A DNA stretch of 64,000 nucleotides from NCBI GenBank assembly GCA_004022145.1, contig RCNU01000008.1; one strand, 5' to 3'. Numbering within the stretch: position 1 is the first letter of the stretch; each line of letters begins with the position of its first letter. This document shows, in pieces, positions 7,059 to 40,623 of the stretch. The notes under the pieces are model-generated. The model did no database searches. It saw only the letters and a program-made list of their open reading frames with translations, and was not told where the DNA came from. This DNA comes from Paecilomyces variotii. Taxonomy: Eukaryota. Both the position numbers and the translations under genes were made by a program.

Positions 7059-10000
7059 TTAGGCTGCGTCTTCCACCTTGACCGAGACATGCTCTTCGGC
7101 CTCCACGCAACCGCTCAGCACATCCATGGCTGACGTCGAATCGATATTCCTTTGATCAGCGACGTCTCCTGAGTGGCCACGTGAAGCGGGACGCTGTAAA
7201 AGCTTGCTGTTCAGATCAAGTTCATCTTGCGCCAGTTTTACGATACTGGCTATCTCGGATTTAATCTCGATCTGGGTTTCGTTGAAGGCTGCGAGCTGTG
7301 GAGCCACTATAGCCGCATAGTAATCACGCCAGATGTTTTCGAGGTGAGTCCTGATTCCATTCGTGATATTATCTTGAATGGATTTTATCTCCCCGAGAAG
7401 GGACTCGGCGGCCTTTTCGGCGCTGTCGTCGAACATATAGTTCCGTGCATTCTCGGTCTTCACTTCCATGATCCTTCTCATTCTTTGGAGACTCCCCGCG
7501 CCTGCGGAACAGGTGTCAGTTATGATACCAATCGAAGGACAACGACATGATACTTACCTCTCTGTTCAGTACACTGCTCGTACGCCGACTCCATCGCTTC
7601 TGCGATAGCTGGAGTGAACTCTCGACTGACTCGTCTCTGCAGGTCCTTGAACGACTGAGCCGCTGAAAGAAACAAGACGCCCAGAGATCTGCGATAATTG
7701 TCATTTTGCGTCGTCAAGATCGTCCGGTAATGACCAGTAACGACCTCGTTTCCGTGCATCAGGGAATTATGAAAGCCCTGGAGGAGATTCTCAGAGCCTG
7801 ACACAGCCCGACCCAGCTGGTCTGGAAGATTAGACTGGAAAGCCCTACGTCAGGGGAAATCGTTAGTAGTATAAATATGCATGCTGATAGAATATTCTTA
7901 CCTCTGCCAGGAAGGAAGCAGATCTCTCAGCATGGGGTCGCATCTATACCATCAGCAAGGTATACTGAAAACCCTCGAAGACAATCTACTTACAGTTCTT
8001 GGTTCCAGTCCTTGACGGGGTCAGTGTCACAGGAATCAATTTCGGTCGGTATAGACTTACAAGCTTTCGATATACGCCCTGAAGGACACCTGATCGTCTA
8101 CATATAGCCCTGTAGGTGTTCCACCTGTATCCCGGGATCATCTGACCGCCCCGGCCTGTATGGGGTTCATTCCAACGATGCACGACAGCCATCGCTTTCG
8201 AACGACCACGAAGAGCTGCATGTCCTAGCATATCAACGAGTTAGATACTGTTCGACAGTAATATATGGAAGTTAGGATAACAAACTCAGACGCTGGAAAA
8301 CATGTCCTTCAAAAGTGTCGAGCTGCTCATCGAATAATGATTCTATCAACGCCACCAGAGCCTAACAATCGGAATAATATGAGTTTTTGCTTTTGAACAA
8401 GAAGTGGAATAAGCTTTACTTACTTTCTTCAAGGCGACGAAGTGATTTTCGAGTTCGCTCTGAAGCTCGATCCTCTTCTTCTCCGAGACCTCCGACGACT
8501 CCCTTTGGAGCGCCCAGAGATTCAATGACTGGAACAACTGTGAAATGCCTCGAAGTACGTTAAGGCAGGATGACTTCCTCGCCGTGTCTGCCAGAAGACG
8601 ACAGTGTTTCTGCAGTTGTGGGATCTCCGTGTCGGCCGGGTTGTTGAAGCCCGGAATCAAGGAATCCCTCCGCAACCTTCCAGAGACCTTCTGATAGCCA
8701 CGAGAGGAGACGCAGAACACTGGAAGGTTTCTGCCCAGCTTCTCGTAGTCACGGATCTGGATTTCAGGGTCAAAGTTGTCCGGGTCAATTGCTTCCAACT
8801 GTTCGTCATCCAGTTCCTTCAGCCCGGTTGCGAAGTCCCTACGGATAGCACCCTTAGAATATTCATTCCTGGCTCGGATACACTCAATATTTATGAGACC
8901 TTGTATGGCCTCTTCAGACATGAAGACATCATTCAGGGCTCTCTCTTTTTCTTTGATCTGCTGCGCCAGATCATCCCTCTTAGAGACCAGCTCATCCCTT
9001 CTGCTTTTCAGCTCTTCAAGTTTGGAACTGACGTCGGATTCTGTTAGAGGGCGTAGTCTCTCTGGGGCTTCGGTGACTTGATTGAGTTCGGTTTCTTCTC
9101 CAGTATCTCCCCCATCGTCTGACATGGCCAGCTCGTCGTCGGAGTCATCAACTTCTGGTCTCTTTCTCTCCGGCGTATCGCCGCGGCCTCTCTTTCGTTT
9201 GAGCGGACTTGAGAACTCCATAGGAGGGTATACCTCCTCTCCATCACGAGATGTCGCAAGAAGTTCCTGCCATGCTACTAGCTTCTCGAAGGTCTGCGCC
9301 AACTCTGTCGTGACAGAGTCGGCAATGGTCTGAAGTTCTTCAATCTCACTTTCTAGTAAGTCGCGTTCTATTTTCTTGGTTTCAGATTCTTCTATGAGGC
9401 CGGTGAGCTGGAGATCGAGAGACTCATGAGCTTCGGTAGTGCTGACGTCGTCTGTCTTGGTACAGATGAATGTGATGGACTCAAAGGCAGAATCCATCGC
9501 CAGCTGCCTCTTCATATTGTCTCCAAGCAGCTTCTTCGCAATGGCATCATCTACAGCCCGGGTTATCGGGGCGACAACCCAATGCGCTGAGCACTTCTTC
9601 ATGTATTCTTCCGCAACGGCCACACGAGCAGTATTGGAGTCCTGGACTCCTGGCAGGTCGACGATGACCGCTCCTGTGGACAATGCATCCGCCTTCACGT
9701 ATATCTTCACGACCCGAATCAGGGGCCACCATTCCGGTTCATCTTTCTGGGCTTCCTTTTTCTTCCCTCTTCTTTTCTCCTTGCTATCAACGTAGCTTTT
9801 GAGTCGCTCGTAGAACTTCTTTGGATTTTCCTCCTCAAATATGAGTGTGGTTCCGAACGTTTCTGTCAGCTTCGAGTCATTCAACAACTTCTCAACAGAC
9901 GACGCAAGGATCTCTTCCCTGCTGAGCGAAGGATAAACCGCCTTGATCTTGTCAAGCGCCATAGCAACCTCCGAGTCTCTCGGGAGACTACTATCATGGA

Positions 10001-10596
10001 CAACATCTCCGCTGCTGTCGCTGAGGTCCTGGAACAAAATCCTCAGCTCCTTTTCCCAAGCATCGCGCTGAATAAACTCAATGCGCGCCTTGTATCTGCT
10101 CACGCCGTCATTATACGAAACCTCCGTGGCGACGGCAGTACAAGCGCGCAGACAGTTCGTCGGGACGAGTCTCTCCTCATCCACCAGCGCATTTATCAAG
10201 GACGATTTCCCGGCTCCGGTGGTTCCAATGATGCCAATGACAAATTTGGTCTTGTCTGTGGTGTTGAGGACCTTGGCGATTTCGCCCTCCCAGTGTTGGT
10301 CACAGGTGCCGTACTTTTGAAAGACTTCGCGGAGGAGCTCGATTGCCTTGACGCCTTTCTCGATGGTTGTCTCTAATTCTTCGACAGAGTAGGTAATCTG
10401 AGCATCTTCACGATTATTCTCTTCATGAAGGACTTGAGAATTTGACCTTTGTGAAGACTGTCTCTCGTGCCTGTCGCTGCTTTGTTCTTGTTCTCTAGAA
10501 CCCTGATCTTATTTGTTGAATCAGTATCAAAAGTGACTATATGGTGAAACGTCAACAAACGATGGAGAACTTACTCAGAGCAGGATTCGACTCCAT
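7059..10596 (-). CDS. Dynamin-superfamily P-loop GTPase, nuclear GTPase SLIP-GC (NUGGC)-like
   Basis: G1 'IGIIGTTGAGKSSLINAL', G2 'PTNCLRACTAVATEV', G3 'IVDLPGVQD', G4 'FICTKTD', a long acidic coiled-coil, then 'VFCVSSRGYQK'. Short first exon MESNPAL (ATG 10596) is spliced via GTAAGT...TAAG. Several further introns at 7.5-8.4 kb. Last exon ends VKVEDAA* at 7059. Confidence 0.8.
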
Positions 10597-13027
10597 GACG
10601 GATTTTAGAGATAAATCCCTCCACGTAGCAAGATACCTCCGTTACACGATGTGTGTATCGTTACAAGTAATGAATATCATGTAATATCAGAGGTGTGAGA
10701 GAGATGATGTGGATTAGAAGTGAGTAGACGAGTGAAGACGGTCCACAGCTCTTCCCACCAAGAATCGAAAGAAAAGATGAAAAATGACTATTCCCCAAGA
10801 GCAGAAGACATATACAAGCCAAATATGATAACTCTTGAAGGATATTCAGACACGTCAACAGTAAGAGTAGACTTGTTGACAAGTGAGCTAGGTGGAGTGT
10901 GTATGCTGTTGTTGTTGTGTTTTGAATCTGATCTGGGTGGCAACCATGTGCTGGTCGAACACACGCTGGTCATTCTTTGTCTACATCACCTAAAGCGTCG
11001 AAGATCAGATGATATGAGTGTTCATAGAAGAAAGAAAAGTTGATACAGAATTGTAAGTAAGGTATGATAGAATGGATTATTATCAAAAGTGAATCGAATG
11101 GTTTCAGAGTAACTAGTCTCGGAGGGCAGAGTACCATATGCTGGTCCTTGAGAACCATCGTATGCTATTCTCCTAGTGCTCTCTCTCTCTTTTGTAGGAA
11201 GATGAGGGGTTTTTTAGTAAAAATTCACAGGACTTGCTGAATGATAAGTGAAAAATTCAAACTAGGGTAGGTGAATTCTTCGAGTAATCGACGCATCTTA
11301 TCACTCATGCATGTAACTTCGAAAGAAATTCACTCCAGAAGATATAGCCACCCGTAGACCCTCACTAGTTAACAGTGAATAAATACTATGATCTCGAACC
11401 ATGATATTAGTTATCAGTGGTTAAACCGTAAAGACGAGCTCCGTGTTAAGATGATAATAAAAGGTCTAGTTTCGAATAGCGGAGCATTTGGACATGGCCA
11501 ATTCATCTTCTGAGAAACCAAGATTTAAAATAGAAATAAGAAACATACTTCAGGATCCCTGGCTGACTTACCCATCGATGGAGCGTATGTAAGATTCATG
11601 GAGGGTTCTTTATGGAATTTGCTGCCTCTCTCTCGAAAATTCTCTCCGAGTTCGGTTCGGAACCTTGACCACGATGGCGAGGGTGGACTTCGTATACGAG
11701 ACGAAACGAAACGAAATCCCTCCCTCCCTCCCTAGATCTCCAATGTACAGTGGGGAATTGGCACTATGGTGAGAATAGAATGTGCTGCGCTGCAATTGCC
11801 ATTGAGGGAGAGATACCTCCATGAGTCAGTCTACGGCGAACTTTGAGAGCCTTGGAAGTGGGTTGGTTGGACCGGAAATAATAGACATGTGAATACTTAA
11901 CGCATGGCTCACACTACGTACTTAGAAAGGCTACATTTGCATTGATTCCACAAGGTCTACCCTGCAGCTTCCTGTCGTCTTGACTCTGGGGTGCGAAACT
12001 CTCAAAGGGCTAGAAGCAAAAGAATTCCAATTGCGAAAAGAAAAAAAAAAAAAAAAAAAAAAAAAGTCCACAGTAGAATATACCACCGTCATCATTAGTT
12101 ACTCGTTGTTTGTTATTAACAATCGACCCGGCAGGTAAATAACTAATTAATATTATTGTGTTGACAAAGGGAACGGTGAACAACAAACATCCATCCGGAA
12201 ACTGATGAGCAAAAAAATAGGCTTAACTACTTATTGTGAACCGATTAGAACCCTCTTTGCCGAAGTACTTAGAACCGAGCGAAAACAGGAAACGATGTCC
12301 GTATTATTCATTGTCGCCCTTGCCAGACTGGAAGCAAGGGGATCGTTCCCAGCCTGAAAGAAAAATCGTCCGCAATTATTCTGTTCGGAGAGGCCATGGC
12401 ACGATTCTGATCGGGATCTCGACAGTTAAATAACTAACTATCGTTGGTGATCTTCGGTTGGAGACCCGCTTTGTGTCCGCTAAGTAGGATCCCCTCTAAT
12501 TCTAGTCGTATGTGAATAATATCTTGCCAGTCAGTGTGATGAGGGGAGTTTGAGGATATCGGGCGGAGAGTTGCTTCTGCGAGTTCATGTCAGTTGAGGT
12601 TTGGTTTTGTCTCTGCAATCTGAGTATACTCTATATATACAATTTGTATGTACTATCGTTGACAAGTTGAAGCTTTTGTTTGACCTTTGGTCCGGAATTC
12701 CCGAATCTTCGCCGGGGCTCGGTGAAATATGAAGAAGTCGCCACTTTTTGGATTTGAAATCATAGTTATCAAAAGTTCTACAACTGACGGGGATAGGTTG
12801 AGCCACAGTAAGTAGAGCCACAGTAACTAAGTTAGAGTAGATGATGACAAACCCACGCATTTTCCAGTTATATTATAAATCTCTCTCTCCAATAATCAAT
12901 CGAATCCCCACACTATAAATAGGACCTGCTTTGTACCCCAACGTTGGTTATATTTAATATTATTATTATTATTATCTATTATTTATTTATTGTTCGTTGA
13001 TTTTTTTTATTTTTCTTTCTTTTCACA

Positions 13028-14094
13028 ATGGCCAGTCAGAGAATCGGCGTCTTTCCTGCCGCGGGTGGTATTGGTGGTAGCACTGTCAAGTACTTGCTCC
13101 CGCGGCGTCCGGCTAAAGATCTCGTCTTCATCGCTCGGTATCCCGACAAGTTAGAATATGCCTCTGCTGCGGGAGCAACTGTTCGCCAGGCCGATTATGA
13201 TGATGACAAGTCCCTAGAGCATGCTTTTGATGGAATCGACACTCTGTTCCTGATCTCGTATGCTTCAGTTGAAGTGGAGCACCGAGCTGAGGTACGTTCA
13301 GTTCAGTCTTAACTACTACCTAGGTTGTTACTTATAATAATATATATATATATATATGTTTCTTGCCAAGACTAACACGGAAACCAAAAACTTGATAGCG
13401 TCACCGAACTGCAATCGACTACGCTCTCCGTAGTGGTGTGAAATACATTTTCTATGGATCCCTGGGATTCGCTGGCAGTCCAGAAAGCAAAGAGTCAGTT
13501 GCTCATGTGATGCAGGCTCATTTGACTACCGAGAAGTATCTCGAAGAGTGCGCCCGCTCGCATCCCGGATTCGCCTACACCATTGTACGGGAGGGACTGT
13601 ACTCTGAATCGTATCCTCTTTATACCTCGTTCTTTGACCCCGCCGATCCGGTTGATGAGATCAAGATTGCCCACGACGGATCCGGCCCCGGGATTGCCTG
13701 GGTCAAGCGGGAAGAACTGGGAGAGGGAACGGCGGAGCTGTTGAATATCTTCGCTAAGAATCCAGAGGAGTTCAAGTTCCGGAATAAGACGGTTCTCCTT
13801 TCTGGTACCAAGGTGTTGAGTCTTCAGGAGACGGTGGATATTCTGGCTAAGATCGCGAAGAAGCCTGTGAAAATCGTTCAGGTGTCGGATGAAGAGTTCG
13901 CGCGCCAGCCCAAGAATTCGCCGAACTTCACGTATCATGGCGTTGACCTCTCTAAACCATGGGCAACGGCTTTTGAAGCTTTCCGCAGAGGCGAAGCGAG
14001 TAAAGCATCGCCGCTCCTACGTGAACTGCTCGGTCGCGAGCCGGAAGATTTCGAAACCACAATCTCGCGAGCCTACACAACCTCGCAAGCCTAG
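13028..14094 (+). CDS. NmrA-like / atypical SDR NAD(P)-binding oxidoreductase
   Basis: Rossmann motif 'IGVFPAAGGIGGS', 'VRQADYDD...AFDGIDTLFLIS', 'H...EKYL', 'TIVREGLYSE', C-terminal 'LLGREPEDF'. One intron 13292-13398 (GTACGT...GACTAAC...TAG). Confidence 0.85.
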
Positions 14095-14699: not shown

Positions 14700-15423
14700 T
14701 TACGCGAAGAGGACGGCGGCCAGGGCGGCAACACCACCGAAGACGAAGGAGTTGCCGACGGTGCTGGCGGCACCGGTGAAAGCCGGGGGAGAGGGGGTGG
14801 CAGAGCCGGAACTGTGGATATATTGTTAGTTGATGGATTCTTCGTGAGATCAGTTTGAAGAATCGAGGAATGACTTACGGAGTGGGAGAGCCGGAGGGCT
14901 TTCCGGGGTAGCCAGTGCCAGCAGGGACGGCGGGGGTGGCACCAGGAGCCTTGGGGGCAGGGCCACCAGCAGCGCTGGAGGGAGCCAGAGTGACGGTCGA
15001 GTAGCTCACGCTGGGAACGCAGGTGGAGATGGTGATGACCGAGATGCTGGGGGCAGCAGCAGAGCTGGGGTACGGGGGCTGGGCGGCAGCGCTGCTGACG
15101 GGAGCGGGAGCGGAGGGAGCGGGACCGGAGGCCACGGGGCTCACCGAGGCGGGACCGCTGGGGGCAGCGCCGCTGGTAGCGGGAGCAGAGCCGCCGGCGG
15201 CAGAGGTGGTGATGGCGGGAGCGGGAGCCTCCGAGCTGCCCTCAGGGGCGACAGAGGAAACAGCCGGGGCAGCAGTGGCGCTGTGCTTGCGGGCCGGGCA
15301 GTTGGTGACGGTGGGAGCACACGAGGTGATGGTGACATCCTCGGTCTGGTAGACCGTCTCAGCGGCCTGGGGGAGGGCAGCGGCAAGGCCGGCCAGGAGA
15401 GCAACGGAGGCAGCGAAACGCAT
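14700..15423 (-). CDS. GPI-anchored Ser/Pro/Ala-rich cell wall protein
   Basis: Signal peptide MRFAASVALLAGLAAA, motif 'TEDVTITSCAPTVTNCP', low-complexity stalk. Intron 14878-14812. Exon 2 ends with GPI signal 'PAFTGAASTVGNSFVFGGVAALAAVLFA*'. Confidence 0.85.
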
Positions 15424-18250
15424 CTTGAATTCGTTGATAGAGGGGGTATTTCAGGAAATGAAATCCGTCAAGGCGTCGAAGCGAAAGAAGGGAGTGCGGG
15501 TTTGCAAGAGAGCGGTGGTAGTTGGTAAAAAAGAATGGACGTTGACCGAAGTCAGAAGCAGGACACTGCAAGCACGAAGAAGGGAGTCTTGGTGGGACTT
15601 GGAGTATGAGAAGAAGAAGAAAGAAAGAAAGAAAGGAACAGCCAGCCCGGGGGATGCTGGGGGCTCTTTGTATGAGCTGGGAGATTAACCTGGAGATCCT
15701 CACGGAGGCCCAAAAAGGGGGGGCGCTTGGGGAGTGGACCGGCCAGCAAACGCGTCCCTCGACTTGTTGTATTCTAACTTGGTTAAAGCCAGAGAGAAAC
15801 ACAAACACAGAAACACCACGGCCGAAGCGATCACTGGGTCTGAGAGCAGCGTGCCGTGCTGGGTTGGCAGACTAGCCATTGCCATAGACTAGATAGCCCA
15901 AGTGGAGGCCGGTGGTCCGCGGTGGCTGATCGTTGTCGTGCGGGTTTCCTTAGGGCCTCCTGATAATCACTGTCAACGGCGAGGACGGAGTATAATGATA
16001 CTAGTTACTAGTGACCTAGTTACTCCTGTTCCTGAGAGTCGACAATGCGAGACCACTCGACTTGATGGTATCTACTCTAGATATTCTGCTCTGCTCTGCC
16101 CTGTTCTATCTATCTATCTATCTACTGTAGACTACTAGATCCCAGCTGTCGAGAATTCCGGGGAAACCGGGCTGTTTATTCGTTCTGCCACTCGATCTGG
16201 CAGTGTTTCAGGAACCATCGCACTTGCCGCCCAGCACGGCTAGTCAGGGGGTTGTGTTCCCGCCTAGCGTCATCTTCACCGCCAATTACTGCTGGTCAGA
16301 TGGATCGGATAAGCAACTCGCCCCCTGAAGCGAAAACTGCACTGGCTGTGGTCGTGATACAAAGTCGCACTGGGCGTTGCAGCACGCTCTCTAGAGTTGC
16401 TCTAGAGTTGCTCTAGCGGCCAGCTCAGCAGCCATCCTGCTCCTTCATTGTCCCCTGTCCAAATGAACGCTCCGCCGCTCGGGGAATTGATTGGTCTCCC
16501 TCAGCTCGCTTGCTTTTTGATGACTTCGATGCTAGCGTCGTCTCTTTCTGCTCTCTCACTGCTCATCCGACAATCCCTTCTCCAAACGTGTACAACGGTA
16601 ATCCCGTAAGTGACAGTAATCATTAATGAGTAATCATATCGGGAATCTCCGTCTCTTTTTTTCTCTCTCTCTCTCAATCAGATACCATAGTTATCGCAAA
16701 GTCAAAACAAACTCTGCTGCTAGAGCATCTAGGGCAGCCCTTCTAAACAAGTCCCAGAATCCAGACTCCAGACCCATCACAGTCATGGATCCAGTAGCTA
16801 CTATTTCCGGAAATGAGAAGTCCGGACTCCTCGATATTAATCTAAATGCGGATGATGGAAAATACGGGGTAACGTTGGAAGGGAAAAACGGTAGATAGGT
16901 TTGGCCGCTGCAGAGTCCAGTCAAGCCGACTAAAGACGCCACAGCATGTCTCCTTCCGGAAGCACCTGCGAGATCTAGGGTCTGATGGATCATGGACCCC
17001 AGTAGTGCTACCCTATCGAGCGTGCTATTTTGCGAGCGGACGCTTCTTTTTTGGACACTCCAAGCTAGCCGCCTTTGCGGGCGGGAAGATCAGAATCAAA
17101 GGAACAGACTATCGACGTCTGGACTCGATCGCATACATATTATTATCACAGACAAGCATCAGACATGGGCGCCATAAAAGTATATCCTGCTCGACCAGGC
17201 GAGCCATTCTGTCCTGCCGTTACGCCACCACGAGCACCGTGTCTGCTGGCCAGCTCGGTTCTCAGGAACAGTCTGGGCGTACTTAGCCGCTGCAACATCA
17301 TACTCAATCCGACGGTCTTCAGATGCGAATGCCGACATTGAACGCCGAGAATCGAATCAAGAAAAGGCCAGGAGATTTCTCTCATCCACCCTTATTATTT
17401 GACACGCTATTCTATTATTATTTCCACCTGGTCTCGGTGAGATTCCGATCCCTGCCAAGCTACCGGTCTTTGCTGACAATATGCGATGATCTCGCACCAC
17501 AGGTTCGGAGACGTTCACATTTGCATCAGACTTGACTCGTCCCTATCCCCCTCTCGCCGTTCAACATCACTTCCATCGAGCACAACCTGACAGGAGTTCT
17601 TTCGAGAACTCGAGACACCTCCAACCTATCCCCTGGACTGCTTGATACGATGACATTATGGCATTATACACCACCGGGAGACAAAACGAAGCGAGGTCGG
17701 TCCAGACTGGAAACACGAGAAGCATCTCGATAATTCTGTCAATTGGCAAGGTCTGCAGAGCGCTACACAATACCAAGGGTTCAAGAAACGACCCTCAAGC
17801 TTGAGATTTGGACTGCTTCTAGTCCTAAGATATATCTTGTTTGATGGCCTCTCTTAGCCACAGGTACCTACTGTCCCAGCTACTAACCGCCAGGATAGAC
17901 TCTTTGCGTCCGATCGCCCAAAAAGGACTGCTGATATCGTAGGGTTTCAACATCAGTAACTACTACTACTACTAACTAACATACTCCAGTGAATTATCAG
18001 ATCATCAAACTTGTAGTTACTCCACAATATCCACAAAAAGACCTTTGACAAGATAATAATAACATCCTACGCAGATGTGATAATAACCCATAATATCTAT
18101 GACTTCATTTCTAACCGTGAGTCATCACGTGCAATAACTAACTATCCAACGCACAACTTCGAGAAAGAAAAAAAAAATCACCAAGACTCCATAATTTTCC
18201 CCTCCCGGATATAACTCCTCTTTGTCAACCCACAAAGCAAACGCCAGATA

Positions 18251-19171: not shown

Positions 19172-20206
19172 TTAGACGTGTCTGTAGGGTTCGTAGGCGG
19201 TGGTTCTCATGTTGTAGGCAGGGGCGGGAACATTGGCAGGATGTTCCTGGTTGGCGCCGTGGGCGTACGTGCTGCCAACCGGCTCGTAGGTGTAGGGGGC
19301 CTTCTCAGCACCGACGACGCCGCGGTTGCGTCTGTTGCCGCGGGGAGAGCTGCCCGAGCAGCAGCACGAGCTGAGCATCCAGAAGAGACTGGCTGCCAGA
19401 GAGAAGGCGACGGCGAGCCAGGTGGTGACATACATGTTCCTGCCCATGCTGCCGGTGATTCCATAGGACTTCAGCTCCTTGTTGAAGGCGTTCGTCAAAA
19501 CGACGTACATGGCGGTAGCGGTGACCGAGGCGGCGATGGTGAAGAGCAGCGACACGGTGGAAACCAGACTGGTGATGCAACTTCCCAATCGACTGCAGAT
19601 GGCAGTGAGGCCGACGACTAGTTCCACAACAGTAGCCGCGAAAGCGATGATGTAGGCGATAAACATCCACTTGGTCACCGCCTTGTACGTGTTGAGTTCC
19701 TTTTGCAGACTGTCGGGGAGGATGTCCTCGATGCCAGTGCCGTTCAGGTTCCAGACCTGCACCGGGTTGAACCAGAATCCCGCCTTGGCCTTGGAGCAGT
19801 TGGTGGTCTTGAACTCGTCGTTGGTAACGTCTCCGTCACAGTAACCAAACAGTCCAATGTCGTAGAAATCCTTCAGGTTCAGCTCCTTTTCTGCTTCGTT
19901 CAGCAGCGAGCTCAAGTTGCTGCTTGTGTCGGACGCGCCCAGGGCGCTCGATAACGTTGAACTGACATCCGAAGCAGTCGTTGTGAGATTTTGGAGATCC
20001 GCCTGGGAAGTATTAGTCCATGTTAAATCAACACCATCATCTTTGGGGTAATGACCGGGTCAACATACGCGGAAGAAATAGAGGTTATTGAGAGTGCTGG
20101 AGTTCTTATTGGTGCATCCCACACCAACGAGGATGAGACAGATTAACGATGCAATGGTCAAGAGATATGGTGTGAAGATGCACACGATTCTGCCTGCTTT
20201 TCCCAT
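19172..20206 (-). CDS. Sur7/PalI-family tetraspan membrane protein (Pun1-like)
   Basis: N-terminus 'MGKAGRIVCIFTPYLLTIASLICLILVGVGCTN', loop motif 'DFYDIGLFGYCDG...NCSKAKAGFWFNP', three further TM helices, Cys cluster 'SSCCCSG'. One intron ~20068-20003. Confidence 0.85.
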
Positions 20207-21302
20207 TGTGTAGATAGTTTTCAGAAATGGCAATGCACGGGCCGCAATGTCAGTAGTAGTAGTAGTAGTCTAGTGGAGTCTGGACTCTTCTGGCGATGTA
20301 TAGCGACTGTCTCTGACCGATGGAAACGAATGATCGATAGATGCAACCCGGGAGGACAGCTGGTATCAGGAGAGCGAAGGACAGATGAAGAGGTAATAAT
20401 AATAATCAGTGAGAGGAAGGAAGGAAGGGAGGAAGGGCGGAAGACGGCTAATTAAAAAAGATGAGGCCGGATGACCGTTTTCACAGCCAGGCATTGGCGG
20501 GACGTCAGCACTGGAGATGGATCGCCTGGCTCAGCCTCTCAGGTCTGCGCGCGTGGCCGCGATGACTCCGCTGCGCCACTGCCGTTTCTATTCTTATCTA
20601 GATAATATAAATATTGTGGTTGGTGCCTCGTGGCGGTGGTTGGCTCTCTCAGGCAACCAGTCCACATTGGACCAACCACCGTTGTCGCTGGCCGCGCGGC
20701 CCCACTGTCCACGTCTCGCGGGAAACACGAGGCTTGGCATTCGAGACCGATAGACACAGGATATACCGAAGATGGACACAAGATAGACACACAGATGCAC
20801 AGATACGGCAGTCCTGAACGGTTGACATGCAATTTAAACTTTTCTTAGTTGCGCACTGAAATTCGGGTATCTTCTGCCTCACAGCCCTAAGATGATCGTC
20901 ACTGCTTCGCAACTAGGGAACTTGTTTCGTTTTAGCTTTTTACTGCGAAAAATTCAATAATTGCTGCGCCGCATACCCTGACGTTTCTTGCGAATGTACT
21001 TGTTACAATTGAAGGAACCGCAGTTGTCCAAGGAGAGGACGTGCCGTTGGGTCCCGTCCACCCACAGACGAAACAGGAACAGATAAGATAACTATGATCT
21101 TCAACATCTATAGCTTAGGTATCTAGTGCAGCACTTTCGAGCACGAAACTATTAATTCACTAGTACAACACAAGTAGCTTTAACGGCCAAACCCACTCTT
21201 GCAAGCAGCTACTCTACACCATTAGATCCTAAAATACAGCTCCATTTCCATATCAATATTCAACGCAAATCTCTGATATCCGCTATACTGGCAGTCGGCC
21301 GG

Positions 21303-22429
21303 TCAAGGATCATGCTCATGGACAATCTCGCCCTCCGCCGGCGTGAACGGATGATTCTGCGGATCGCCCTCGATTCGACGCGCATAGGCCCACTCGAGAA
21401 CGGTGTCGAAATTACGACATCTATGAGGCGTGCTGAAGTCGGGATAAGGCCGTTGTTCGCGTCCCTTCACGTACTTGTACCCATAGATACCCGCGTCCGC
21501 ATTGCACATGAGCACCTGTCGGAGCATTTCCGTGCAGTGGTAAAGGTGGTTCTCCAGTTCAGCTCCTGAGTCACTGAACTCACTGCCCTGATTCCGGTAG
21601 TAAGGATAGTTGAACCATGCAGCCTTGCGGAGGAAGTTCTGTGGATGCGGATACTCCTGCCTTAGCCTCTGTTCCGAGAAGGGAAACCAGACGGGGATCA
21701 TCCATGGATAATAATACCAAGCCGAAAGAGGGAACTTACTACGCAGTGAAGTTGATGGTTCACCTCCACAGAGGCCATGTATTCACCGCTGCCTTTGTAG
21801 CCGGGAGGGATTCGTACATCTCCTTTTTCGAGGCCTGCTTTGAGAGCTTCGTGCTCTGGAAGAGAAAAGACGCCCACTAGTTCCGGTCAGCGACGTTCCA
21901 AGCCTCGATATGATAGGGGTATCTCATAATTCCATACTGCCGAGTGAAATATAGCTCCATGCTGCGTCGACTTCAGGCCCTGGTGGAGCGCGGTAGATAG
22001 ATTCGGCATGCAGAGAGCCGTTGAATTTGGTCGTCATGTAGGGATCTTTAATCTGCGCTAAGATGGGGCCTATCGTCCACACATTAGCTGGACTGCAGAA
22101 TGAACAGACTGGAGCTTGTAAGGAGAGGACAGCATACTGTAATAGCTACCATGCTTCAAGCAGAAGCGATCAACTTCTCGAAGAGACACCCACCAGAAAG
22201 TTGCAAACAGCATTGAGCTGACGATGAATAGGAGGAGGGACGTGAACAGCAATCCGTATATCCACTTGTTCAACGGTCGAGGCATATGCTTCATCGCCAG
22301 AGCAATCGATCCATGGAATTTGTCGGTCTTTTCATCGTGTAACAGCATGTCCGTATCTTCCATCTTGCGCGAGAAGGAGTTTTCTCCCGCTTCTTCCTCC
22401 GAGGAACTGACTGGACTATAGAGCGACAT
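21303..22429 (-). CDS. DUF3328 / UstYa-family oxidase (RiPP tailoring enzyme), copy A
   Basis: N-terminal TM anchor (WIYGLLFTSLLLFIVSSMLF), 'KFNGSL...IYRAPPGPEVDAAW', motif 1 'VEVNHQLHC', motif 2 'NHLYHCTEMLRQVLMCNAD', C-terminal 'PDFSTPHRCRNFD'. Four exons with GT-AG introns near 22137-22070, 21937-21878 and ~21740-21636. Confidence 0.9.
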
Positions 22430-23490
22430 CTCTGATCTCCCTTGCAAAATAACAGCGACATATGGACAAGGTGAAAAGAAGCAATCGATAATATGCTATT
22501 TCACTATTTCACTTGTGTCTAGGAGGAAAGACTGAGCTAGACTCAGGTTCAGACTCAGCCTTTGGTCTCGAACAGGATCTAGCCCGTGCTGGTTCAGAAG
22601 TACGATTGACAAAGAAGGCATCCAATAGCCTGACAGAGATTCTAATCGTTCCATACGCGCGCGGCCACTGGTAGTCGACTACTTGGGGAACAAAGATTCT
22701 TTGTTCGAAGAAGCTCAGATACCTCAGATCAGTCTAAAGCATATATTCGCCATCATGTTCTTGATCCGTCCAGAGACAGCATCATGCAGCTGAGGAAAGG
22801 ATGAGACAGGTCAGAACGCACGGTATAACAGATAAATAAAGCAACCACCCCTTCCCATGGCATTATTGGCTTACTGTTTCTTGTTATTATAGATTGTCAC
22901 CTGGTTTGAACTTATTAGGTCGCGTGATCAGTCTTGAAAGGCGTGAAAGCCAACACGCCCGATATTGGAAAAGCACAAGTACGACCCGTCAGTATAGCAT
23001 AAGCTGCACAAAGAGAAGAAACTTCAGGTTGAGACAGCTAGAACCTTCTTCTCCGTTAACGGCGTATTCGAGAGTAAGGTTTCAATATTGGCTGACGCCG
23101 TGTGGCTTCTGATTAGGCTTCGAGACATCGGTAACCTATGGAGCTCTTCCCTGCGATTGACCGGGCAATCAAAGCCAGGAATAAAGAAGGTTGACTGCAT
23201 GAAAGAGATTTACCTTTGCATGATCGGATAACTGGCACAGAACAGATCCTTACACAGTGCGCGAGGATGACATAGCGTCGAGACTATCACTCCTCTCCAT
23301 GAAAAAGAAGGTGGACACAAACTTTTACGAGAATTTTGGAATTGCTTCTCATAGCAGTATAAAACAGCCCAGTATTCCCATCCAAGTAATCTTCTCTCAC
23401 TTTTATCTATCAGAGCCAGATCCCTCTTTTCGACTATCCACAACCGACCTGTTTCCATCTCCAAGAACGTCTCTCTTTCAAATCTTCAAA

Positions 23491-23961
23491 ATGATCGCAA
23501 AGCTGTTTACTCTCGCAGCCGTCATTGCTCTGGCTACCGCTGCGCCAGTCTCCACCTGTAAGACAAATCTTGACCGTCAATTGACATTGCTAATGGTAGA
23601 TAAACTAGCATCCGAGATCGCCGCTAAGCGTGATCCCGCTAATGACCTGATCGAATACTACATCGATGGACCTTCTGAGAACGATAAAAAGCGCGATGTG
23701 AAAATGAGACGCGATCCCGAAAACGATCTCGTTGTCTTCTACATCCCCGAGGAATCCAAGACCACGAAGCGTGATTCTGAGAATGAACTCGTGAAATTCT
23801 ACGTCGGAAAGGAAGATGTCGACAAGAGGAGCAACAATGGCTTGCCGGTCTACTCTTCCGTCGACGCGGATGGTCTGAGGCGGCGCGACTCCGAGAATGA
23901 ACTTGTCAAGTTCTACGTTGGAGCGGAATCTACTGAGAAGAGGAACAATGATGCTGTCTAG
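23491..23961 (+). CDS. Secreted Kex2-processed repeat protein (KEP), candidate RiPP precursor peptide
   Basis: Signal peptide MIAKLFTLAAVIALATA-AP, probable 51-nt intron 23558-23608. Then units delimited by KR/RR: DPANDLIEYYIDGPSENDKKR, DPENDLVVFYIPEESKTTKR, DSENELVKFYVGKEDVDKR, SNNGLPVYSSVDADGLRRR, DSENELVKFYVGAESTEKR. Lies between two DUF3328 genes. Confidence 0.88.
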   Translation: MIAKLFTLAAVIALATAAPVSTCKTNLDRQLTLLMVDKLASEIAAKRDPANDLIEYYIDGPSENDKKRDVKMRRDPENDLVVFYIPEESKTTKRDSENELVKFYVGKEDVDKRSNNGLPVYSSVDADGLRRRDSENELVKFYVGAESTEKRNNDAV

Positions 23962-24555
23962 GTGTGTAGTCTACGGACTAGGCACTAGGCTTCTGCGGAG
24001 CTTCCTAGAGGTGTTGAGACTTGGAGGGAAAGTAGTTCAGGCTTCAGACATTCCTTTAGTGTTTCGTTTCTGTCGTCTTTGAATCTTTTCGCTTTGTGCA
24101 TCCTATGCACGATGCAACTCCGACGTTCCTTAGTTTGAATTGTAGTTTTAGTTATCTTGGTAGCTACGTTCGAAGTGGCTTCATTCTGTAATACATCTGT
24201 TTACCTCCGAATAAGGCCATGAGAATCTGTAACACAGTTATCATAAAGTGTAGTAGTAGGGCTACATGTAAGTCCAGTCCTACTCAAGTCGTATAGCGCG
24301 CAGGGATACAGGTAGTATCAAGAAGTCCGAAAAATACCGCCAAGCGAGTCTAACTGTAAGTATGTGCATAGTAAAGATTAGAACAAAGAAAACTAAATCC
24401 AGCGTATCATGGCCGGGCCAGGAGCAGCTTAAAGTATCTCCTGTGACCATTCAGATAGATGAATCTCTCTCTCTCCATCGATGTTCCATCCTATCTGCAT
24501 CTCAACTAGAGAACCCCAAGAGAAAGAGAGGAAAAACACGAGTCAAGCCTCAATA

Positions 24556-25380
24556 ATGGCCAAACACGAATCCTCAAATCCCAATACCTGGCGAATTCCC
24601 TTCTTGATCACAGCAACCCTACTCCTCGTTCTCGTCTCAGCAGAAATCTACTTCCGAATCATCCCAGACAACATTGAAAACGTCGGAGCGAGCCTCCTAA
24701 CCCCCAAACCATCCCCTTCACATCAAACCCCAACAGAAGACGACACAACAATCGGTTCCGTTTTCCGAAAAATCGACATTCTCGAAGATATGGGTCCCGC
24801 AGGAGACGAGGCGTGGGATTCACTCCTCTTACCGAAAAGAGGGGGCTATATATTCGCACGACCGGAGGATCCTGCTTCGAACGAAGCAGAGCCGTGGGGT
24901 ATTACTATGTTTCATAGTTTGCATTGTCTGGGTATGCTACGAAGTGCGATTCAGGAACAGCAGGGTTCGAATAGTTCAAATGCGCATGTGCATAATCATA
25001 ATCATGCGAGGAGGGATGGAGTCGAAGATGTTAACCATACGGTCCATTGTCTATCTTATCTTGCTCAGGTAGGTTTCCCGCTCATTTAGGTAGTTTTCTG
25101 ATATGGATAATTATGAATATGGGACATGTTGGCTAATTAGGTACTCCTGGAACAGGCACTGACGTGCTGTGGGGATGGCACTCTTGAGAAAGCGATTCAT
25201 CTGGATGAGCCAGATAGACGCTTTGCCATTAATGGACAGGGCGTGTGGCATCAGTGTCGAGATACGAGTTTGTTATGGGATATTACTATGAAATCGACGC
25301 GTGAGCCGGTTGATAGATGGGTTTCGAGGAGAGGTGAGACGGTCTATAGTGTTTGGGGTAAGGGGGGTCGGACGAACTAG
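24556..25380 (+). CDS. DUF3328 / UstYa-family oxidase (RiPP tailoring enzyme), copy B
   Basis: N-terminal TM (IPFLITATLLLVLVSAEIYF), 'GDEAWDSLLLPKRGGYI', motif 1 'ITMFHSLHCLGMLR', motif 2 'NHTVHCLSYLAQ|ALTCCGDGTLE', C-terminal 'GQGVWHQCRD'. Intron 25069-25155 (GTAGGT...GCTAAT...CAG). Confidence 0.9.
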
Positions 25381-25927
25381 GGCAGAAGTGTTGGAAGGGT
25401 TGGAGTAGAGAAGGTTGTTTGCTTCTTTGGCTTTCTCCTTTCTCTTGTTGTGTAGGTAAATATTGTTTTGGATTATCGGTAATATTCTATCTTATCATTT
25501 CGGACAGTTTGATCCATCGTCTTGTTCCCCGCATGCGTGACCCCACATAAGTAAGTAGTGTCAAGAGTGACATAATTTATCTTCAATGAACGTCTGTTAT
25601 AACTCAGTAAATCTATGACATGGGCATCGAGACACCAGTTTTATCTTGCTTCTATCTTAATCTAAAACATTCTCAGCTCTTCCAACTTACCAATTGACAA
25701 TTCCGATATTGTATATCGTATTTCATACCGAGGTCGTAACGCTGGATGTTGGAAACCCCTGTGGTAAACCTCGGGAAATCCAGACATCTATCGGGGAGTA
25801 AATGTGGGGTCTATCTCAGAGCTCTACAGAGGCAAGATAATAAATGAGAGATCCGCAAAGAAGAAAAAGTAATATATCTAGAGAAACAGTTTTCAAGTAT
25901 CCTGTCCCGGTAACCGCAGATTTCAAA

Positions 25928-26976
25928 ATGGCCTTAGTAGAGCTCGATCCCTCCTTACTAGCCACGCTCAAGGACAAAGTCGTCGTCCTTACGGGCGGGG
26001 CGACGGGCATAGGACGTTCTGCTGTAGAGCAGTTCCATGGTGAGTAGGAGGAGGAAACTGAATTCAAGAGAGAAAGAAAATGAAATTGACAATTACTTTC
26101 ATCCCAGCAAGCGGCGCAAAAGTCGTCTTCGGAGACGTCTCCGACAAACCTGCTCAAGAACTGATCTCAAAACTTGGCCCATCTGTTCGCTACATGCACT
26201 GCGACACAACACGCTATGCGGATCAACTCGCCCTCTTCGCGACAGCCGAGAAGCTATTCGGTCGTGTCGATATCGTGGTCGCGAATGCCGGAGTCGCACA
26301 GCACAAGGACATTTTCGCTCCAGACCAAGACATCAATGAGGAGCCGTCTCTGCGGGAAATCGATGTGAATCTCAAAGGCGTGCTTTTCACAGCAAGGATC
26401 GGTCAACATTATCTCCGCAAAGTAGGAGGTGGAGATATGATTCTTGTCAGTAGTATTGCTGGCTTTAAGGAAACAGGTGGTCTTACCCCGTATATGGCGA
26501 GCAAGCATGGGGTTATTGGGATCTTGCGGGGGTTAAGACTCACGGCTCTTCCGGAGAATATTAGGATTAATGCCATTTGTCCGTGGATGACGAGTGAGTT
26601 TTATGATGACATCCTTGTTTAATTGGTGATTATAGTGCTTATGCATGTGTCAGAAACGCGGCTAGTAGAGGGCATCGAGGACGGCTGGTATAAACTAGGC
26701 CTTCCTACAAATGAACCCGCCGACGTTGCGAGGGCGATTGTCACTTGTGCGACGGCAAACAGAGAAACTGGAGGTAAGACGCACAGAGGAGCGGTATTGC
26801 CGTTTGCGGGAAATATCCTTTACGTTGCTGGCGGAAAGGCCTATGAGATTGAGGCCAAGCTGCAGGAACTGGAGCCGGTATGGCTCGGAAAAGAGAACAG
26901 TGAGGTTCTTGCAAAAGGACAAGCATATTTGGCGTCAGAGGGAACCAGCTGGGATGCTTCGAAATCAAAGTTGTAG
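25928..26976 (+). CDS. Classical short-chain dehydrogenase/reductase (15-hydroxyprostaglandin dehydrogenase-like)
   Basis: 'VVVLTGGATGIG', 'VVANAG', catalytic Ser in 'VSSIAG' and 'YMASK'. Introns ~26040-26107 and ~26593-26653. Confidence 0.88.
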
Positions 26977-39150: not shown

Positions 39151-40623
39151 ATGCATCGCACGTATTCTATGCGCCAGACGCGCGCTCCAACCGCTGCCCA
39201 GCTGGAGAACCCACCGCCTCCGCCATCGTCGACCAAGACCGGTCGGATCTTCGGAAAGGGTGGCTTTGGTGAGTCCATTCGTCGTGTTGTTGCGAGCTCC
39301 TCTCCTTCGCCCGGGTTCCTTTCTCACAAGTGGTCAAATCCTCACCGGTCATTGGGGCGGCGGAAGTGCATCTGCGCTGGCCCTCAATGGCATGGGGTTT
39401 CTGTCCGCTTGCTGGGGAGATGACCGCGGGGGGAGGGGGGATCCCCAGCTGTAACGGGAGATATCTATAGATGGCTCACGGATCAACTAACAGGTGGTGA
39501 CAACGCAGGCCATGCTTTTCGCAAGTCGGCCGCCGGCGCTTTCGGACCGGATCTGGCTAAGAAGCTCTCGCAACTGGTGAAGATGGAGAAGAACGTCATG
39601 CGCAGCATGGAATTGGTGGGAAGAGAGAGGATGGAAGTTGCGGTATGTGTTTATGGGGATGATTATGATGCTGGGTATTCTTCAAGAGATCGTTGATGCT
39701 AACGCGGTCCTTCCTCACTGTAGCAACAACTTTCCATCTGGGGCGAGAACTGTGATGAGGATGTCTCCGACGTCACTGATAAGCTGGGGGTCTTGATCTA
39801 CGAGATTGGAGAGCTCGAGGACCAGTTCGTCGACCGTTATGACCAGTACCGCATTACCATGAAGAGCATTCGCAACATTGAGGCTTCTGTGCAGCCCAGC
39901 AGAGACCGTAAGTTTTGATTTTTTTTTTTTCTAATCACGTCTGGAATGCTACGATTCTAACAGATCCTTCCTCATTTAGGCAAGCAAAAGATCACCGACG
40001 AAATTGCCAAGCTCAAGTACAAGGAGCCCAACTCCCCCCGGATCGTCGTCCTCGAGCAGGAGCTGGTTCGTGCGGAGGCCGAGTCCCTGGTCGCTGAGGC
40101 TCAGCTCTCCAACATCACACGAGAGAAGCTGAAGGCTGCCATGAACTACCAGTTCGACGCTCTCCGCGAACATTGTGAGAAGGTTGCTATCATTGCCGGC
40201 TACGGAAAGCATCTCCTGGATCTCATCGATGACACGCCCGTGACTCCCGGAGAGACCCGCCAGGCCTATGATGGCTACGAGGCCAGCAAGGCGATCATCC
40301 AGGACTGCGAGGATGCCCTCACCAACTGGGTCACCTCCAAGGCTGCTGTCCGGTCGAGCTTGTCGACCCGTTCTCGCACCCTCTCCCAGCGCCGCCGCAA
40401 CAACGCGTCCAAGAACGGTGAGGGGGTGGACTTGGCCAGCCAGGATCAGCCCATGAGGGGAGACAGAGATTCCTGGCTGCCGGCTGACCAGCACCCGAGT
40501 TACAACCAGGAAGAAAACGAGCAATACCAAGACGGTACAGACGAGGAGCCTATCGAGGTGGCTGGCGCCAACGGAGAGCAGCGTGGCCGCGTAGAGGAGA
40601 GGGAATCCATCGTCACCGCCTAA
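39151..40623 (+). CDS. pilA: Eisosome BAR-domain protein Pil1/Lsp1 (PilA)
   Basis: 'MHRTYSMRQTRAPTAAQLENPPPPPSSTK', 'FGPDLAKKLSQLVKMEKNVMRS', 'DEDVSDVTDKLGVLIYEIGELED', 'LEQELVRAEAESLVAEAQLSNITR', 'TPGETRQAYDGYEAS'. Introns 39269-39508, 39643-39723 and 39908-39979. Confidence 0.93.

What the first reader, a model, noticed from the sequence alone, without database searches (positions are those of the whole stretch)
21303..25380. Candidate new fungal RiPP (dikaritin-type) gene cluster: DUF3328 <- KEP precursor -> DUF3328
Seen in sequence: a signal-peptide precursor with five KR/RR-delimited, Tyr-containing repeats sits between two intact DUF3328 genes, each with both HxxHC motifs. Established: a Kex2-cleaved repeat precursor plus UstYa/DUF3328 oxidases defines dikaritin clusters (ustiloxin UstA/UstYa/UstYb, phomopsin, asperipin-2a AprA/AprY, victorin), where DUF3328 enzymes form oxidative cross-links, often Tyr aryl ethers. 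Inference: this locus makes cyclic peptides. The cores differ from those I know (YAIG/YVIG, YVIPID, FYYTGY, GLKLAF). No tyrosinase, methyltransferase, transporter or peptidase is adjacent, so it looks like a minimal, possibly undescribed system.
Basis: partly seen in the sequence, partly recalled or inferred. Interest (0 to 1): 0.92.

Follow-up and report, generated by a model that had tools for sequence, protein, structure and literature searches.

The report
Fungal cyclic-peptide gene trio, product unknown
A mould carries an intact three-gene set, one multi-copy peptide gene between two copper-oxidase genes, that very likely makes small ring-shaped peptides of a well-known and common fungal kind, though this particular product appears not to have been described.

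Summary
A secreted-type precursor gene (23491-23961, +) lies between two intact UstYa/DUF3328 genes, each with both HxxHC motifs and a Pfam PF11807 score above cut-off. Gene A is identical to an annotated Paecilomyces variotii protein. One correction: four units are true repeats (D-x-[EA]-N-[DE]-L-[IV]-x-[FY]-Y-[IV]); the fifth Tyr unit is degenerate. RNA contigs from one food-fermentation study show the precursor polyadenylated; evidence for the two oxidase transcripts is weaker. Best reading: Kex2 releases acidic 17-19-mers and the dicopper oxidases cross-link the invariant Tyr, asperipin-style; the bond itself is inferred. The architecture is ordinary: a published survey found DUF3328 genes beside 1758 of 7878 such precursors, 1.7 per precursor, and tyrosinase genes are uncommon there, so 'minimal' is not unusual. 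The precursor's only clear relative is a longer near-identical allele, and I found no paper on it, but a catalogued P. variotii precursor with DUF3328 nearby could not be compared. One odd lead: all five gene-B-family sequences carry a dibasic site between the two copper motifs. Verdict: new member of a known kind.

The parts
21303..22429 (-). Gene A, UstYa/DUF3328 oxidase, 298 aa; exons 22429-22138, 22069-21938, 21876-21740, 21638-21303; one N-terminal membrane helix; HxxHC motifs begin at 21757 and 21548
   Evidence: identical to P0007; PF11807 184.3 bits
22430..23490 (.). 1061-nt divergent intergenic region between gene A and the precursor; TATAAA at 23358
   Evidence: shared regulation is inferred only
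23491..23961 (+). KEP precursor gene, 139 aa if the 51-nt intron is removed; predicted signal peptide about residues 1-17
   Evidence: signal peptide from hydropathy and inspection
23558..23608 (+). Predicted in-frame, stop-free GT-AG intron (an alternative acceptor gives 42 nt); the repeats are unaffected whichever is used
   Evidence: not confirmed by RNA
23632..23694 (+). Repeat 1, central L-I-E-Y-Y-I
23713..23772 (+). Repeat 2, central L-V-V-F-Y-I
23773..23829 (+). Repeat 3, central L-V-K-F-Y-V
23830..23886 (+). Degenerate unit, central G-L-P-V-Y-S; similarity to the other units at shuffle level
23887..23943 (+). Repeat 4, central L-V-K-F-Y-V
23962..24211 (+). 3' untranslated region of the precursor; poly(A) loose ends at 24193 (run X20) and 24211 (run X19), neither at a genomic A-run
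24556..25380 (+). Gene B, divergent UstYa/DUF3328 oxidase, 245 aa; intron 25069-25155; one N-terminal membrane helix; HxxHC motifs begin at 24913 and 25036
   Evidence: orthologue P0001
25009..25014 (+). Arg-Arg pair in the His-rich loop between the two HxxHC motifs of gene B; a dibasic site at this loop in 5 of 5 B-family sequences
   Evidence: meaning unknown
25928..26976 (+). Short-chain dehydrogenase/reductase gene, possible but unproven tailoring member
   Evidence: PF00106 111.6 bits; model; spliced in RNA runs X19 and X20

Best explanation
A dikaritin-type (ust-RiPS) ribosomal peptide cluster of Paecilomyces variotii. Shown: three intact genes, family identity of both oxidases, repeat structure, polyadenylated precursor RNA in one study. 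From established knowledge: the precursor enters the ER by its signal peptide, Kex2 cuts after KR/RR in the Golgi and frees acidic 17-19-residue units; DUF3328 proteins are membrane-anchored, lumen-facing, O2-dependent dicopper dimers using the HxxHC pair. Inferred: A and B oxidise the hydrophobic centre L-[IV]-x-[FY]-Y-[IV]; most likely one closes an aryl ether from the invariant Tyr oxygen to the beta-carbon of the always beta-branched Ile/Val three residues upstream (asperipin-like, no tyrosinase needed; about 0.3 for this exact bond) and the other adds a second ring, hydroxylation or desaturation; unlinked peptidases trim the acidic flanks; the result is a small set of secreted cyclic peptides whose ratio varies with repeat number between strains.
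For: Both flanking genes pass PF11807 with two HxxHC motifs and a membrane helix. They are the only paired HxxHC in the window: 8 six-frame matches, 4 of them these, the other 4 single and next to stop codons. Repeats beyond chance, 0 of 5000 shuffles. Tyr is invariant in 4 of 4 true repeats here and 6 of 6 in allele P0005; Tyr is enriched in KEPs with DUF3328 neighbours, 65.6% against 38.2%. Poly(A) ends in 2 of 4 RNA runs laid, both from one study. Gene A is kept intact in Rasamsonia and Talaromyces (64% and 58% over the last exon). Asperipin-2a is closed by Tyr-O to beta-carbon ethers with one DUF3328 and no tyrosinase in its four-gene cluster (PMC6514808 passage; PMC12186524 passage). Copper, O2, dimer and topology shown for CctR (PMC12435403 whole text).
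Against: No product, mass spectrum or knockout exists here. No splice joint for A, B or the precursor was listed; the gene B piece in X19 starts at 25108, inside the predicted intron; gene A is covered only from 21492 downward; strand and level cannot be read from contigs. Runs X17 and X18 run through introns and intergenic DNA and give no evidence of transcription. Linkage of precursor and oxidases in other species could not be shown: the 3 distant gene-A-like loci found (30-38% identity) have no repeat precursor nearby. No shared promoter words above chance. DUF3328 enzymes also act on non-ribosomal substrates.
Confidence: 0.72

Rival explanations
1. The precursor yields linear secreted peptides (signal, pheromone-like or surface peptides) and the oxidases act on something else or not at all; adjacency is partly chance.
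For: 78% of KEPs have no DUF3328 neighbour and several verified KEP products are linear. The feature search gave a mating-factor cluster at 0.85 as second hit, a lead-level score only. Gene A has orthologues in two other genera while the precursor has no clear relative beyond one allele.
Against: A DUF3328 gene on each side, both intact, 1061 and 594 nt away; invariant Tyr; mating factors almost never have DUF3328 neighbours (PMC7329392 abstract). Fast divergence of precursors is the rule: 2560 of 7878 were stand-alone.
Confidence: 0.12
2. The ring is of the ustiloxin/phomopsin type (Tyr-x-Ile, first to third residue) with a tyrosinase encoded elsewhere.
For: Two DUF3328 genes as in the ustiloxin cluster; repeat 1 contains Y-Y-I; every repeat has aromatic-Tyr-(Ile/Val) (YxI motif described).
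Against: The first aromatic is Phe in 3 of 4 repeats here and 5 of 6 in P0005, so Y-x-I is met in one repeat only; no tyrosinase among the 28 ORF stretches scanned.
Confidence: 0.08
3. The cluster has four genes: the adjacent short-chain reductase is a tailoring enzyme, playing the part of AprR in asperipin-2a (compatible with the best explanation).
For: Same strand, 547 nt after gene B; spliced RNA in the same two runs; the asperipin-2a cluster contains a reductase.
Against: AprR is described as an isoflavone reductase, whereas this is a classical adh_short protein with no evident signal peptide; such genes are common; no synteny evidence could be had.
Confidence: 0.2
4. The precursor is already in a published computational catalogue, as RWQ98829.1 (KEP type 28, DUF3328 nearby) of Byssochlamys spectabilis = P. 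variotii (affects novelty only).
For: It is the 1 of 8 Byssochlamys rows in Table S2 of PMC7329392 marked with DUF3328 in the vicinity (synonymy).
Against: Type numbers rank by size and type 26 has 35 members, so type 28 should be a multi-species family, whereas this precursor found no hit among 64 near-length candidates and one real hit among 1.84 billion representatives. Both searches can hide relatives inside clusters, and the table carries no sequences.
Confidence: 0.2

Closest known systems
Asperipin-2a cluster of Aspergillus flavus (aprA, aprY, aprT, aprR)
   Same: Small cluster, KEP precursor with more than one kind of unit, internal F-Y / Y-Y aromatics, DUF3328 oxidase, no tyrosinase.
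   Different: Core FYYTGY and 8-residue repeats there, 17-19-residue acidic units with L-[IV]-x-[FY]-Y-[IV] here; two oxidases here against one; no transporter found here; the neighbouring reductase is of another family.
Ustiloxin and phomopsin clusters (ustA/ustYa/ustYb; phomA/phomY)
   Same: Signal peptide, Kex2 sites, Tyr cores, two or more DUF3328 genes beside the precursor.
   Different: They need a tyrosinase and carry methyltransferase and other tailoring genes, and cyclise Y-x-I; Y-x-I occurs in 1 of 4 repeats here.
Epichloecyclin (gig) cluster
   Same: Imperfect repeats, strain-variable repeat number giving a product mixture, conserved Tyr, DUF3328 cyclase (PMC10540207 passages).
   Different: One DUF3328, a SET methyltransferase and a cluster-own kexin; cores such as INFKIPYT; a C-N link is proposed there.
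CctR and the DUF3328 dicopper enzymes
   Same: Single N-terminal membrane helix, HxxHC(x)nHxxHC, further C-terminal cysteines.
   Different: CctR hydroxylates a non-ribosomal peptide; copper binding and dimerisation were not tested here.
Plant cyclopeptide-alkaloid cores (ArbA/ArbB2), analogy only
   Same: Five-residue hydrophobic cores ending in Tyr, cross-linked between positions 2 and 5 by a copper cyclase (PMC12186524 passages), as my preferred bond would be.
   Different: Unrelated BURP-domain enzyme, plant pathway.

Membership tests
KEP (Kex2-processed repeat protein) | N-terminal ER signal peptide | tested here: inconclusive
   Basic residue, hydrophobic run peaking at 2.6 and small-residue cleavage context by hydropathy and inspection; no SignalP-type tool
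KEP (Kex2-processed repeat protein) | At least 3 tandem repeats of 8-100 aa between dibasic sites (criterion) | tested here: met
   Four homologous units of 17-19 aa, 0 of 5000 shuffles as similar
Dikaritin / ust-RiPS cluster | DUF3328 (PF11807) gene(s) next to the precursor | tested here: met
   Both neighbours above Pfam cut-off
Dikaritin / ust-RiPS cluster | Two intact HxxHC motifs in the oxidase | tested here: met
   A residues 182 and 218, B residues 120 and 161
Dikaritin / ust-RiPS cluster | Co-expression of precursor and oxidases | tested here: inconclusive
   Precursor poly(A) and partial cover of A and B in 2 of 4 runs, one study, contigs only, no splice joint for the three genes
Dikaritin / ust-RiPS cluster | DUF3328-dependent macrocyclic product | not testable with these tools
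   Needs LC-MS, knockouts, NMR
Ustiloxin/phomopsin subtype | Y-x-I core in the repeats | tested here: not met
   1 of 4 repeats; 1 of 6 in P0005
Ustiloxin/phomopsin subtype | Clustered tyrosinase and methyltransferase | tested here: not met
   None among 28 ORF stretches scanned across the window; not a full annotation
Asperipin subtype | FYYTGY core, transporter and isoflavone-reductase genes | tested here: not met
   Core absent; no transporter hit; an adh_short gene adjacent and an NmrA-like ORF 7.2 kb away, below Pfam cut-off
DUF3328 dicopper enzymes | Disulfide-linked dimer binding copper | not tested
   Monomer models were low-confidence; no complex prediction was obtained

The most novel reading that the evidence does not exclude
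The cluster makes a macrocyclic scaffold unlike any described dikaritin, and gene B defines a DUF3328 subfamily that is itself cut by Kex2 in the loop between its two copper-binding helices (a conserved [TA]-[KR]-R site), working as a clipped two-chain enzyme or as a partner of A, so that one protease both frees the substrate and matures or switches the oxidase.
Probability: 0.08. Interest if true: 0.75.

Novelty: new member of a known kind. Interest (0 to 1): 0.4.

Why it matters
Few dikaritin products are chemically known against well over a thousand predicted clusters (five listed in a 2022 review; 1758 predicted), so a compact, intact, apparently expressed cluster with an undescribed core is a practical target for finding new DUF3328 copper chemistry. 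Near-identical DNA occurs in food-fermentation metagenomes and the precursor RNA in a food-fermentation metatranscriptome study, so the product may be present in fermented foods; since some dikaritins are mycotoxins, its activity is worth knowing. It does not change the picture of the class.

Tried and rejected
No whole genome is held for the window, so other KEP, tyrosinase or kexin genes of this genome were not surveyed. Precursor search among near-length proteins: 0 of 64 candidates scored; since even same-species alleles did not appear, the blank is weak. P0006 (E 3.8e-4, 4541 aa, repetitive) rejected as a chance match. Pfam: no family for the precursor; six sub-threshold hits for P0005 disregarded. 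ESM Atlas: precursor hits 0.84-0.85, leads only; gene B orthologue 0.95 to UstYa clusters. Metagenome scans: 0 of 205 stretches confirmed for the B family; 3 of 186 for the A family, distant, none with a repeat precursor by my scan. PDB sequence searches: no relative. AlphaFold2 monomers from 8-sequence alignments: mean pLDDT 49.9 and 47.7; both put the two motifs on two long helices but are too weak to use, and no fold search was run. No dimer prediction was obtained, so dimer or heterodimer formation is open. Cluster membership look-up could not be made, so P0009 could not be tied to the three T. stipitatus KEP rows marked DUF3328, of six listed. Listing type-28 members from the supplement failed. 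Shared promoter words at k = 7-10 at chance level. An upstream ATG at 23299, used by the P0005 prediction, lies before the TATA-like box and was rejected as the start. RNA bins without cover over most of gene A in X19 and X20 are no evidence of silence. Earlier-scan look-ups by sequence and place returned nothing.
Full report
OBSERVATION. The region holds three intact eukaryotic genes. Gene A runs 22429-21303 on the minus strand in four exons with GT-AG introns of 68, 61 and 101 nt and gives 298 aa with a membrane helix near residues 60-78 and HxxHC motifs at 182 and 218. My model is letter-identical to NCBI protein P0007, annotated from Paecilomyces variotii, which scores 184.3 bits against PF11807 UstYa, cut-off 25. 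Gene B runs 24556-25380 on the plus strand with one 87-nt intron and gives 245 aa with a membrane helix near 14-32 and motifs at 120 and 161. Its first exon scores 51.3 bits; its annotated P. variotii orthologue P0001 (91% identity) is spliced at the same place and scores 73.3 bits. A and B are only 23% identical. The window is therefore from P. variotii or a very near relative, and its other genes look like ordinary chromosomal genes (SUR7, GH31, WD40, XPG, Pil1, bZIP, fungal transcription factor).

The precursor starts at 23491, 133 nt after a TATAAA, and stops at 23961. A stop-free in-frame intron of 51 nt (or 42 nt) follows the signal-like segment; retained or removed, the frame and the units stay the same. 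Dibasic sites cut out five Tyr-containing units and one 6-residue spacer. Their mean similarity is 32.0 against 13.9 +- 1.1 for shuffles, 0 of 5000 reaching it, and the ORF ranks first of 84 dibasic-cut segments in the window, 59.0 against 43.3 for a low-complexity runner-up. Four units share D-x-[EA]-N-[DE]-L-[IV]-x-[FY]-Y-[IV]; the unit at 23830-23886 scores 12-14 against them, the shuffle level, and keeps only Asn, Leu and the first aromatic position.

RELATIVES. A full HMMER scan of 1.84 billion representatives gave 2 hits at E up to 0.001: P0005, 91% identical, and a 4541-aa repetitive protein that I reject. P0005 is a longer allele with six true repeats plus the degenerate unit. Two RNA contigs are 24 and 6 letters longer than the window over the repeats, sizes that fit the short insertions seen in P0005 (inference). 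The word-based search found 0 of 64 candidates. Gene A has 4 hits among 48 candidates, including Rasamsonia byssochlamydoides (64%) and Talaromyces stipitatus (58%); gene B has 4 among 48, three of them unnamed at 66, 41 and 38%. I could not see the DNA around any of these. Two metagenome scans gave 0 of 205 and 3 of 186 confirmed stretches; the three loci are distant (30-38%) and show no repeat precursor. Conservation of the gene order outside this species is therefore untested, not refuted.

EXPRESSION. Of 24 runs listed, 20 hold part of the stretch, 4 of them on record as RNA; I laid those four. X17 and X18 (one study) run through introns and intergenic DNA and tell nothing about transcription. 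X19 and X20 (a second study) skip introns of the neighbouring reductase gene (both runs) and SUR7 gene (X20), so they contain mRNA. They cover the precursor from 23688 to 24039 and end in poly(A) at 24211 and 24193, where the genome has no A-run. Gene A is covered only from about 21490 down to 20807-20870; gene B has a listed piece at 25108-25411, which begins inside the predicted intron. No splice joint was listed for A, B or the precursor, the piece table was cut (123 rows not shown), and contigs give neither strand nor level. So the precursor is transcribed in one study; for the oxidases the evidence is suggestive only.

HOW IT MOST LIKELY WORKS. Established for the class: dikaritin precursors carry an ER signal and Kex2-cut repeats, and neighbouring DUF3328 proteins are needed for cyclisation (PMC7329392, sections 3, 6, 7, 9, 11 and supplement rows read). 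CctR shows the family to be membrane-anchored, lumen-facing, disulfide-linked, O2-dependent dicopper dimers whose HxxHC pair is essential (PMC12435403, whole text), and the same paper reports that ApnU and AprY behave alike; I could not read the AprY paper itself. Inferred here: Kex2 frees acidic 17-19-mers and A and B oxidise their hydrophobic centre. The residue three before the invariant Tyr is Ile or Val in 4 of 4 repeats here and 6 of 6 in P0005, the residue two before varies (Glu, Val, Lys), and the one four before is always Leu. With asperipin-2a's Tyr-O to beta-carbon ethers (passages of PMC6514808 and PMC12186524) as model, my preferred bond is Tyr-O to the beta-carbon of that Ile/Val, about 0.3; the second enzyme would add another ring, a hydroxyl or a double bond, all known for the family. 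The ustiloxin-type Y-x-I ring fits repeat 1 only. Core boundaries and trimming peptidases are unknown. A short-chain reductase gene 547 nt downstream may be a fourth member, as asperipin-2a has a reductase, but it is of a different family and nothing beyond adjacency and RNA in the same runs supports it.

AN ODD DETAIL. All 5 B-family sequences (window, P0001-P0004; four lineages, as the first two are one species) carry [TA]-[KR]-R in the otherwise poorly conserved loop between the two HxxHC motifs, against 0 of 4 A-family sequences and 0 of 1 distant locus. Chance per sequence is 0.10-0.18 from whole-protein composition and 0.15-0.56 from the loop's own composition, and the sequences are related, so this is a lead, not a finding. 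If the loop faces the Golgi lumen, Kex2 could cut it.

COMPARISON AND NOVELTY. The locus meets the genetic definition of a KEP + DUF3328 cluster; it fails the ustiloxin/phomopsin and the asperipin subtype features; the defining product is untestable here. The layout is common: 1758 of 7878 KEPs had DUF3328 genes within 15 genes, 1.7 each, peaking at the next gene, while tyrosinase genes were counted 341 times; clusters with signature genes only are called not uncommon (PMC12048977 passages). Full-text searches for Paecilomyces with 'Kex2-processed repeat' (0 papers), 'UstYa' (1, passages unrelated), 'DUF3328' (1, a Metarhizium study, listing only) and 'RiPP' (30, listing only, no title on this locus) found no description; most subscription papers are not in the library, MIBiG could not be searched, the asperigimycin paper (recalled, not held) and the Nagano 2016 catalogue were not seen, and bioRxiv supplements are closed. 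Table S2 of PMC7329392 lists 8 KEPs for the two P. variotii assemblies, one (RWQ98829.1, type 28) with DUF3328 nearby; it has no sequences, so I cannot exclude that it is this gene, though a large multi-species type fits poorly with the lack of relatives.

VERDICT. Real, intact, probably active; a new member of a known and common kind with an apparently undescribed core.

Noticed in passing
window 25009-25014 and P0001-P0004: A [TA]-[KR]-R dibasic site sits in the loop between the two HxxHC motifs in 5 of 5 gene-B-family sequences and 0 of 4 gene-A-family sequences; in the window and P0001 the loop is also His-rich.
   Followed up: partly
window 23632-23943 and P0005: Repeat number varies between alleles (4 against 6 true repeats), and run X17's long contig breaks inside the repeats at 23734.
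   Followed up: partly
window 24010-24016: Runs X19 and X20 carry a 29-letter insertion in the precursor's 3' untranslated region that the window lacks.
   Followed up: no
window 25928-26976: Short-chain dehydrogenase/reductase gene directly downstream of gene B, two introns, spliced in RNA; two possible acceptors 3 nt apart for intron 1.
   Followed up: partly
window about 13000-14094: NmrA-like reductase gene (25.5 bits, below the Pfam cut-off of 27) 7.2 kb from gene A, with two unrelated genes between.
   Followed up: no
window 14875-15450, minus strand: Secreted Ser/Ala/Pro-rich cell-wall-like protein with no Pfam hit.
   Followed up: no
window 19172-20200 and 39961-40623: A SUR7/PalI-family gene and a Pil1 eisosome gene lie in the same 64 kb; the SUR7 gene has by far the deepest RNA contigs in X19 and X20, though contig depth is a poor measure.
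   Followed up: no
window 8346-10508, minus strand: Large fungal dynamin-N / P-loop GTPase-like ORF.
   Followed up: no
L001 1660-2400, L002 7777-8315, L003 2367-2939: Three distant DUF3328-like genes with HxxHC motifs and no repeat precursor in the DNA held.
   Followed up: partly
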